A stretch of 64,000 nt of DNA from Escherichia coli (lineage in GTDB: Bacteria > Pseudomonadota > Gammaproteobacteria > Enterobacterales > Enterobacteriaceae), in the NCBI RefSeq assembly GCF_045037415.1, contig NZ_CP173440.1, one strand, 5' to 3'. How positions within the stretch are numbered: the first letter of the stretch is position 1; each line of letters begins with the position of its first letter. Below, in pieces: positions 36,955 through 37,161 of this stretch. The notes under the pieces were generated by a model. That model was not told where the DNA came from. It made no database searches and was given only the letters and a program-made list of their open reading frames with translations. The position numbers and the translations under genes were made by a program.

Positions 36955-37161
36955 CTACTCAAAGGTAATGACCTCCATAACACAAACATGCTGTGTAGCA
37001 TCAGGAGGAAGTAAGACACGGCAGTTGGGGCAAGGAGTCATGCGCTTGGTTATTATACTAGCTAAATCTGTCATGCGCTTGGTTATACTAGTTAAATCTG
37101 TCATTTTCTCTCGCGAGCCGTCAGAAAGTTCCATTAAAGCTTTTTCAAGTAAATTGCTCAT
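36955..37161 (-). CDS. small zinc-ribbon-like protein containing a 33-bp tandem DNA repeat
   Basis: CPNC ... C; internal duplication MTDLTSITKR / MTDLASIITKR. Confidence 0.35.
   Translation of the reverse strand: MSNLLEKALMELSDGSREKMTDLTSITKRMTDLASIITKRMTPCPNCRVLLPPDATQHVCVMEVITFE

What the first reader, a model, noticed from the sequence alone, without database searches (positions are those of the whole stretch)
37031..37097. 33-bp tandem repeat inside a small Cys-containing ORF
GTCATGCGCTTGGTTAT(T)ATACTAG(C/T)TAAATCTGTCAT occurs twice in tandem, producing the duplicated peptide MTDLTSITKR / MTDLASIITKR. Such repeats can vary in copy number and may be a slippage hotspot.
Basis: seen in the sequence. 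Interest (0 to 1): 0.3.

Follow-up and report, generated by a model that had tools for sequence, protein, structure and literature searches.

The report
In-frame 33-bp duplication, small plasmid gene
A small gene of unknown function on a widespread Klebsiella resistance megaplasmid carries a real 33-bp in-frame tandem duplication that lengthens a predicted helix by about three turns and has occasionally collapsed back to one copy in related plasmids, which is an ordinary kind of repeat polymorphism.

Summary
The repeat is real: two head-to-tail units of 33 and 30 bp plus a 5-bp partial third, at 37037-37104. It lies in a 68-aa minus-strand ORF (36955-37161, RefSeq WP_004197220.1) on an IncFIB/IncHI1B MOBH Klebsiella megaplasmid. 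It is not an assembly artefact: 280 PLSDB plasmids carry the identical unit-unit junction, and the exact protein is on at least 1000 contigs.

Related plasmids carry one unit. Outgroup lineages have a pre-duplication unit (MTDLASITKR, ASIAKH or ARITQH). Lineages close to the window carry all three single-unit products expected from unequal crossover or slippage between the two units (TSIT, hybrid TSIIT, ASIIT). One tight flank haplotype holds the 2-copy array and two of these products. So the array formed once, diverged (one substitution plus a 3-bp insertion), spread, and contracted at least three times. No array of three or more units was found.

All length changes are in frame, so this is not an on/off switch. 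The protein is an orphan found only in these plasmids. It is predicted to be one long amphipathic helix followed by an invariant CPNC-x10-HxC knuckle. The duplication adds 11 residues to the most variable part of the helix. Function is unknown. Interest is low.

The parts
36955..37161 (-). Small ORF, 68 aa plus stop (MSNLLEKALMELSDGSREKMTDLTSITKRMTDLASIITKRMTPCPNCRVLLPPDATQHVCVMEVITFE); RefSeq WP_004197220.1, hypothetical protein
   Evidence: ORF list. Annotated CDS in NZ_MW911671.1. Intact in all lineages, with ATG or TTG start, and all indels are multiples of 3. pN/pS is 0.36-0.55.
37171..37176 (-). Shine-Dalgarno-like AGAGGA, 9 nt upstream of the ATG at 37161-37159
   Evidence: Read from the sequence. 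GAGG is kept in the 93% lineage upstream of its TTG start.
37075..37104 (-). Repeat unit B in codon phase (30 bp, ATGACAGATTTAACTAGTATAACCAAGCGC = MTDLTSITKR, residues 20-29)
37042..37074 (-). Repeat unit A in codon phase (33 bp, ATGACAGATTTAGCTAGTATAATAACCAAGCGC = MTDLASIITKR, residues 30-40).
37037..37041 (-). Partial third unit (ATGAC, start of MTPCPNC). It gives 5 extra bases of identity 3' of the array.
36982..37032 (-). Invariant C44-P-N-C47 ... H58-V-C60 block, a putative zinc knuckle. A beta-hairpin is predicted at CPNC.
   Evidence: Invariant columns in 9 alleles. AlphaFold2 secondary structure. Metal binding is inferred, not tested.
37058..37061 (.). CTAG inside unit A, used as an IS5-family target site in other isolates
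   Evidence: Truncated proteins P0015-P0017 read ...MTDLA|REGANK.... CTAG positions.
37088..37091 (.). CTAG inside unit B, used as an IS5-family target site in other isolates
   Evidence: In L014/L015 the IS is flanked by CTAG duplications and encodes a 326-aa DDE_Tnp_1/DUF772 transposase.

Best explanation
This is an in-frame tandem duplication polymorphism inside a genuine small protein-coding gene of a Klebsiella IncFIB/IncHI1B conjugative megaplasmid backbone.

Inferred history: an ancestral single 30-bp segment (MTDLASITKR) was duplicated head to tail. The upstream unit then took a G-to-A change (Ala to Thr), and the downstream unit gained a 3-bp ATA insertion (an extra Ile). This B-A array spread with a very successful plasmid lineage.

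Shown by comparison: misalignment of the two units has since deleted one unit on several occasions. The units share exact stretches of 17, 12 and 9 nt. The mechanism (replication slippage or unequal recombination between plasmid copies) is inferred. Each deletion leaves a single chimeric unit whose sequence depends on where the crossover fell: TSIT, TSIIT or ASIIT.

Predicted effect on the protein: 11 more residues, about three turns, in one long amphipathic N-terminal helix. This helix precedes an invariant CPNC-x10-HxC knuckle that probably binds zinc. The insertion falls in the most variable stretch of the protein. Because every length change is a multiple of 3, the repeat changes helix length and does not switch expression.

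Inferred consequence: the length change is neutral or nearly so, and the high frequency of the 2-copy allele reflects hitch-hiking with an epidemic plasmid. The protein's function is unknown. My best guess is a small zinc-binding adaptor or regulator that self-associates through the helix.
For: - Array and ORF.
- Not an artefact: the junction is present once, at 100% identity, in 280 PLSDB records. The exact 68-aa protein is on at least 1000 contigs. The longest exact repeat is 17 nt, below the smallest k-mer sizes assemblers commonly use (my knowledge), so collapse in assembly is unlikely.
- Single copy in relatives: OW848805 and pPMK1-NDM; 18 close records. The 93% lineage has 124 records; only three loci of it were read (L002, L004, L006).
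- Ancestral state: the outgroup and basal alleles carry Ala and no extra Ile (ASIT, ASIAKH, ARITQH). That combination cannot arise from a B x A deletion.
- Contraction products: TSIT, TSIIT and ASIIT are all observed. Flank haplotype W' (K7T) carries the 2-copy array (L021/L022), TSIT (L017/L018) and TSIIT (L016). Haplotype X carries TSIT and ASIIT. A third, W-like haplotype carries TSIT.
- No expansion: the 78- and 79-aa three-unit forms are absent from 15 billion proteins, and no such length appears among the homologues.
- Coding on the minus strand: pN/pS is 0.36-0.55, residues 1-23 and the Cys/His block are invariant, and indels are +3 and +33 only. The + strand ORF has an ATG only in the window lineage.
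- Structure: helix 3-40 plus a hairpin in the 2-copy form, mean pLDDT 79, highest (83-89) over the repeat. Helix 4-28 in the 1-copy form, pLDDT 67. The hydrophobic moment peaks at 100 degrees.
- Dispensability: IS5-family insertions, frameshifts and truncations of the gene are found in isolates.
Against: - The order of events (duplication first, contractions later) is inferred from a few dozen haplotypes in a region with clear recombination mosaicism. Some single-unit alleles could therefore have moved between backbones rather than arisen independently.
- The three W' single-unit contigs come from metagenome assemblies, one of them at low coverage.
- No 2-copy array was sampled on haplotype X.
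- The structure models rest on a shallow alignment of 9 sequences.
- Zinc binding, self-association, expression and any phenotype are untested.
- Neutrality is assumed, not shown.
Confidence: 0.8

Rival explanations
1. The 2-copy array is not ancestral to the single-unit TSIT and ASIIT alleles. Instead it was made by one unequal crossover between two co-resident plasmids that carried diverged single-copy alleles (TSIT x ASIIT), and the single-unit alleles are the older state.
For: On haplotype X, TSIT and ASIIT each lie one mutation away from the ancestral ASIT unit, and no 2-copy X plasmid was sampled. For X alone this model needs fewer events. The flanks are mosaic, so recombination between these plasmids does occur.
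Against: Haplotype W' carries the 2-copy array together with TSIT and the hybrid TSIIT on near-identical flanks. TSIIT is the specific chimera expected from a B x A deletion; otherwise it needs a parallel ATA insertion. The identical array sits on at least three flank haplotypes.
Confidence: 0.12
2. The second copy is an assembly or sequencing artefact.
For: None found.
Against: There are 280 independent complete plasmid records with the identical junction and at least 1000 contigs encoding the exact protein. The two units differ at two sites, so they are not a simple stutter.
Confidence: 0.01
3. The repeat works at the DNA or RNA level, as iteron-like protein-binding sites, a regulatory element or a structured RNA, and the ORF is incidental.
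For: The locus lies about 16 kb from a RepB replicon. Direct repeats of about 30 bp can be binding sites.
Against: There are only two units, they occur nowhere else in the 64 kb, and they lie inside a conserved, annotated ORF with in-frame indels only. Most relatives have one unit. There is no Rfam match and no promoter or terminator signal above the shuffled expectation.
Confidence: 0.03
4. The helix-length variants are functionally distinct and under selection. For example, they might retune the spacing between the N-terminal segment and the zinc knuckle of a plasmid establishment, regulatory or anti-defence factor. On this view the 2-copy form helped the epidemic lineage.
For: The 2-copy allele dominates the sampled plasmids. 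The amino-acid changes cluster in this segment. The gene sits in a long run of small accessory genes transcribed in one direction, several with phage-protein relatives.
Against: The gene is repeatedly inactivated by IS insertions, frameshifts and truncations. Alleles differing by 1, 10 or 11 residues all persist, so the helical register is not conserved. The allele's frequency is confounded by clonal spread of NDM and hybrid virulence plasmids. There is no family, defence or anti-defence match.
Confidence: 0.08

Closest known systems
In-frame coding tandem-repeat (VNTR/minisatellite-type) polymorphisms in bacterial genes, generated and removed by slipped misalignment or unequal recombination between short direct repeats
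   Same: Head-to-tail units with lengths that are multiples of 3. Copy number differs between close relatives. Contraction leaves chimeric units that map the crossover point. The exact identity tracts are short (17 nt or less), in the range described for RecA-independent slippage.
   Different: Only states 1 and 2 are seen, with no larger arrays. The units have already diverged, including a 3-bp indel. Change is rare on the sampled timescale (0 of 280 plasmids with the same backbone).
Phase-variable contingency loci (simple-sequence repeats that shift the reading frame or alter promoter spacing)
   Same: A repeat inside a gene whose copy number changes by misalignment.
   Different: The unit is 30/33 bp, so the frame is always kept. 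The array is not hypermutable. There is no on/off outcome.
Small zinc-ribbon or zinc-knuckle proteins (CxxC ... HxC/CxxC)
   Same: An invariant CPNC-x10-HxC block with a predicted beta-hairpin at CPNC. The weak, non-significant best hits are UBZ zinc fingers and ribosomal zinc ribbons.
   Different: No significant match to any family by sequence or fold. Metal binding is untested.
IS5-family target-site preference (CTAG / YTAR, 4-bp duplication)
   Same: The unit contains CTAG. IS5-family elements with 4-bp CTAG target duplications are found inserted at the CTAG of each unit in other isolates.
   Different: This is incidental to the repeat itself. The duplication merely doubled the number of target sites.

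Membership tests
In-frame coding tandem-duplication polymorphism | Two or more head-to-tail units | tested here: met
   TRF finds 2.2 copies at 37037-37104. Repeat pairs are spaced 33 and 30 bp apart.
In-frame coding tandem-duplication polymorphism | Unit length is a multiple of 3 and the ORF is preserved in all array states | tested here: met
   Units are 30 and 33 bp. The 57-, 58- and 68-aa alleles all end at the same stop.
In-frame coding tandem-duplication polymorphism | Copy number differs among related sequences | tested here: met
   280 records have the junction. 18 close single-unit records. In the 93% lineage (124 records) the three loci read have one unit.
In-frame coding tandem-duplication polymorphism | Contraction products are chimeras of the two units, on the same backbone as the array | tested here: met
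   TSIT, TSIIT and ASIIT are observed. Haplotype W' holds the array, TSIT and TSIIT.
In-frame coding tandem-duplication polymorphism | Expansion beyond the observed array (three or more units) | tested here: not met
   One junction per record in all 280 records. The 78- and 79-aa forms are absent from 15 billion proteins. No homologue is longer than about 68 aa apart from mis-called starts and fusions.
Phase-variable contingency locus | A repeat change shifts the reading frame or alters promoter spacing | tested here: not met
   All length variants are in frame and lie within the coding sequence.
Zinc-binding anti-sigma factor (ZAS, HxxxCxxC; one source labels a relative 'anti-sigma-YlaC factor YlaD') | HxxxCxxC motif and a match to the zf-HC2 / anti-sigma domain | tested here: not met
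   The window allele reads R-MTP-C-PN-C, with Arg in place of His. Only the outgroup alleles have His. No Pfam or NCBIfam hit.
RNase P subunit Rpr2/Rpp21 (the label one source gives the 68-aa protein) | Significant match to the Rpr2 family profile | tested here: not met
   No Pfam family at E <= 0.1, none in NCBIfam at E <= 10, and no PDB sequence or fold hit to Rpr2/Rpp21.
Zinc ribbon / zinc knuckle | Four conserved Cys/His ligands arranged as two knuckles | tested here: inconclusive
   C44, C47, H58 and C60 are invariant in 9 alleles, and a hairpin is predicted at CPNC. Fold and sequence matches are not significant (Foldseek E >= 2.4; PDB profile E = 0.15).
Zinc ribbon / zinc knuckle | Binds a metal ion | not testable with these tools
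   Needs metal analysis of purified protein.
Iterons / repeated DNA-binding sites | Several copies in non-coding DNA near an origin, conserved as DNA | tested here: not met
   Two units only, inside a CDS, found nowhere else in the window, and single in most relatives.

The most novel reading that the evidence does not exclude
The 10/11-residue unit is a module of a self-associating helix. On this reading, the 1-unit and 2-unit alleles are functionally different versions of a plasmid-specific small zinc-binding factor (for example an establishment, regulatory or anti-defence protein), and the recurrent length changes are selected rather than neutral.
Probability: 0.07. Interest if true: 0.4.

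Novelty: new member of a known kind. Interest (0 to 1): 0.15.

Why it matters
The wider significance is limited.
- The locus is a clean natural example of a short coding tandem duplication in which all three predicted contraction chimeras can be seen in sequenced isolates.
- It could serve as a cheap lineage marker (1 versus 2 units, and which chimera) for the clinically important IncFIB/IncHI1B NDM and hybrid-virulence plasmids of Klebsiella.
- It shows that WP_004197220.1 is a real but dispensable orphan gene, with a helix plus Cys/His-knuckle architecture.
- It does not reveal a new mechanism.

Tried and rejected
- **Family searches of the ORF product:** Pfam, PHROGs, NCBIfam and PADLOC gave no hits.
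- **Exhaustive profile search of 1.84 billion representatives:** it returned only the family itself, plus repetitive proteins that I judged spurious after reading them.
- **Structure and phage comparisons:** Foldseek against the PDB and a PDB sequence-profile search gave only non-significant zinc-finger-like hits. tblastn against phages gave one marginal hit at E = 0.04.
- **RNA and signal checks:** Rfam found nothing in 36000-38500. The promoter/terminator scan was no better than shuffled sequence. The RNA fold of the upstream spacer had z = -1.3.
- **Iteron or DNA-site idea:** rejected, because no other copy of the unit exists in the window.
- **+ strand ORF 36968-37249:** rejected, because its ATG exists only in the window lineage and the frame is cut short in the 93% lineage.
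- **Assembly artefact:** rejected.
- **Literature:** no paper mentions WP_004197220.
- **Leading-region question:** I considered whether the gene run is a conjugative leading region, but I could not locate oriT and make no such claim.

Full report
**Observation**

The window holds a short tandem array at 37037-37104. Tandem Repeats Finder gives period 30, 2.2 copies, 89% matches and score 104. The repeat finder gives a 17-nt exact pair 33 bp apart and a 22-nt 95% pair 30 bp apart. The unit occurs nowhere else in the 64 kb, and a 30-mer with up to 3 mismatches is expected 0.00 times by chance.

On the + strand the units are 37037-37069 (33 bp) and 37070-37099 (30 bp), followed by GTCAT. In codon phase on the - strand they are unit B (37104-37075, MTDLTSITKR) and unit A (37074-37042, MTDLASIITKR), followed by ATGAC. 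The two units differ by one substitution and a 3-bp indel. Its peptides and the ORF are correct.

**The gene**

The array lies in a minus-strand ORF that RefSeq annotates as a 68-aa hypothetical protein, WP_004197220.1 (window 36955-37161). An AGAGGA sits 9 nt upstream of the ATG. Several observations show that this ORF is real and is read on the minus strand:
- It is intact in every lineage examined, with an ATG or TTG start.
- Its only indels are +3 and +33 bp.
- pN/pS between lineages is 0.36-0.55.
- Residues 1-23 and the block CPNCRVLLPPD-TQHVCVME are invariant, while the amino-acid changes cluster in the repeated segment and the C-terminal tail.
- The antisense + strand ORF (36968-37249) has an ATG only in the window's lineage and is cut short in the 93% lineage.

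**Context**

The window is part of a large conjugative Klebsiella plasmid typed as IncFIB/IncHI1B, MOBH, MPF_F.
- 425 PLSDB records match the 901-bp region, 280 of them at 99% identity or more. In complete E. coli genomes it is found only on plasmids.
- The ORF is one of about 45 small hypothetical genes, all transcribed in the same direction, between a RepB replicon and a plasmid CRISPR-Cas/umuDC region.
- Its neighbours match only PHROG families of unknown function.
- These plasmids are discussed in the literature as pNDM-MAR-like resistance/virulence hybrids. No paper mentions this protein.

**Copy number in relatives**

- A 48-nt query centred on the A|B junction hits 280 PLSDB records. 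Each has one place at 100% identity. This equals the number of records that match the backbone at 99% or more. So every sampled plasmid with the window's backbone has exactly two units, and none has three.
- An 80-nt single-unit query finds 18 close records with one unit.
- The 93% lineage (124 records, pPMK1-NDM type) has one unit in the three loci read.
- In the 15-billion-protein collection the exact 68-aa protein is on at least 1000 contigs and the 57-aa TSIT form is on 165. Synthetic three-unit forms (78 and 79 aa) are absent, and no homologue of that length was returned.
- The longest exact repeat in the array is 17 nt. That is below the smallest k-mer sizes assemblers commonly use (my knowledge), so neither state is likely to be an assembly artefact.

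**History**

| Single-unit allele | Where found | Can it arise from a B x A deletion? |
|---|---|---|
| ARITQH | pPMK1 lineage | No (pre-duplication state) |
| ASIAKH | L005 | No (pre-duplication state) |
| ASITKH | L004 | No (pre-duplication state) |
| ASIT | L013/P0008 | No (pre-duplication state) |
| ASIIT | P0004 | Yes, crossover 5' of the A/G site |
| TSIIT | P0039 | Yes, crossover between the A/G site and the indel |
| TSIT | | Yes, crossover 3' of the indel |

The first four alleles share Ala and lack the extra Ile. A deletion between unit B (5') and unit A (3') cannot produce that combination, so they represent the state before the duplication.

Flank haplotypes tie these products to the array:
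- Haplotype W' (marked by K7T, otherwise nearly identical to the window) carries the 2-copy array (L021/L022), TSIT (L017/L018) and TSIIT (L016).
- Haplotype X carries both TSIT (L001, L007, L024-L026, L029) and ASIIT (L009-L012).
- A further W-like haplotype without K7T carries TSIT (L027, L030).
- The identical array also sits next to a downstream gene about 5% diverged (L019/L020), which shows mosaic recombination.

The most economical reading is one duplication, then divergence of the two units, then at least three contractions (probably four or five), and no expansion. The main rival is that the array arose by unequal crossover between TSIT and ASIIT alleles. That fits haplotype X alone, but it does not explain W' or the TSIIT chimera. 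I give it about 0.12.

**Consequence for the protein**

- AlphaFold2 with a shallow 9-sequence alignment predicts one continuous helix over residues 3-40 followed by a short beta-hairpin at CPNC. Mean pLDDT is 79, and it is highest (83-89) over the repeat.
- The single-unit form gives a helix over residues 4-28 and the same hairpin, with pLDDT 67.
- The helix is amphipathic, with its hydrophobic moment peaking at 100 degrees. Each unit contributes an M-x2-L-x2-I hydrophobic stripe.
- The duplication therefore adds about three turns to the helix without breaking it. This is a prediction.
- Alleles differing by 1, 10 and 11 residues all persist, so the angular register between the N-terminal part and the knuckle is evidently not constrained.
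- C44, C47, H58 and C60 are invariant and probably bind zinc. This is inferred.

No family could be assigned:
- Pfam, NCBIfam, PHROGs and PADLOC give no hit.
- The exhaustive profile search finds only this plasmid family.
- PDB fold and sequence searches give only non-significant zinc-finger-like hits.
- Phage genomes give nothing meaningful.
- Automated source labels ('RNase P subunit RPR2', 'anti-sigma factor YlaD') are not supported. The window allele also lacks the His of the HxxxCxxC motif.

**Mechanism and significance**

Every state is in frame, so this is not a phase-variation switch. The gene is repeatedly found inactivated, by IS5-family insertions at the CTAG in each unit, by frameshifts and by truncations. 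It is therefore dispensable for plasmid carriage.

I conclude that this is an ordinary coding tandem-duplication polymorphism that is occasionally unstable, in an orphan accessory gene. Its high frequency most likely reflects the spread of the plasmid lineage rather than selection on the repeat. A functional effect of helix length cannot be excluded (probability about 0.07-0.08).

**Verdict**

Novelty: a new member of a known kind. Interest is low (0.15).

Noticed in passing
window 37058-37061 and 37088-37091; L014/L015 2570-3775: Each repeat unit contains CTAG. In other isolates an IS5-family element has inserted at the CTAG of unit B (L014/L015). It has a 326-aa DDE_Tnp_1/DUF772 transposase, inverted repeat GGAAGGTGCGAA[T/C]AAG and a 4-bp CTAG target duplication. 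Proteins P0015-P0017 show insertions at the CTAG of unit A, in both orientations. All of these truncate the ORF.
   Followed up: yes
window about 37190-37500: A spacer of about 300 bp between the small ORF and the upstream 65-aa gene is absent from the pPMK1-NDM lineage, where the upstream gene's stop codon overlaps the small ORF's Shine-Dalgarno sequence. The spacer is much more SNP-dense than its flanks: 18 differences in about 200 bp between the window and L001, against 2 in about 590 bp. It hosts an IS1 in NZ_CP070891.1. It has no Rfam hit and no significant RNA fold (z = -1.3). Its origin and role are unexplained.
   Followed up: partly
window 37463-37660 (-): The upstream 65-aa gene encodes CPEC...CMLCGGNG, a DnaJ-type CxxCxGxG zinc-finger motif. 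It matches phrog_4517 (unknown function) at E = 1.6e-40. Its C-terminus differs between lineages because the spacer junction falls in its 3' end.
   Followed up: partly
window 36968-36970 (+): A lineage-specific SNP at 36970 (ATA to ATG) creates the start codon of a 93-aa antisense ORF (36968-37249) in the window lineage only. It is probably meaningless, but it explains why an ORF finder lists it.
   Followed up: yes
L019/L020 versus window 36599-36955: K. quasipneumoniae contigs carry an identical 2-copy array next to a downstream 90-aa gene region that is about 5% diverged. Flank haplotypes around the ORF are mosaic in general, so homologous recombination between plasmid lineages is frequent here.
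   Followed up: partly
window about 40287-40610 (-); L003 7688-8011: The PLSDB table carries an RGI 'AAC(3)-Ib/AAC(6')-Ib3' resistance-gene prediction on a 107-aa hypothetical CDS in the same run of small genes. The CDS looks too short for that enzyme, so the label may be a partial or spurious call.
   Followed up: no
L008 (NZ_MW911671.1 1-36554), corresponding to the window from about 20900 to about 57500: There is a run of about 45 small hypothetical genes transcribed in one direction (including DUF4942, DUF6012, DUF957 and DUF551) between a RepB replicon and a plasmid-borne CRISPR-Cas module (Cas6/Cse3-like plus DEAD/DEAH helicase), a group II intron and umuDC. Some related lineages have a GmrSD_N-domain gene just upstream of the locus. 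Whether this is a leading or establishment region was not determined.
   Followed up: no
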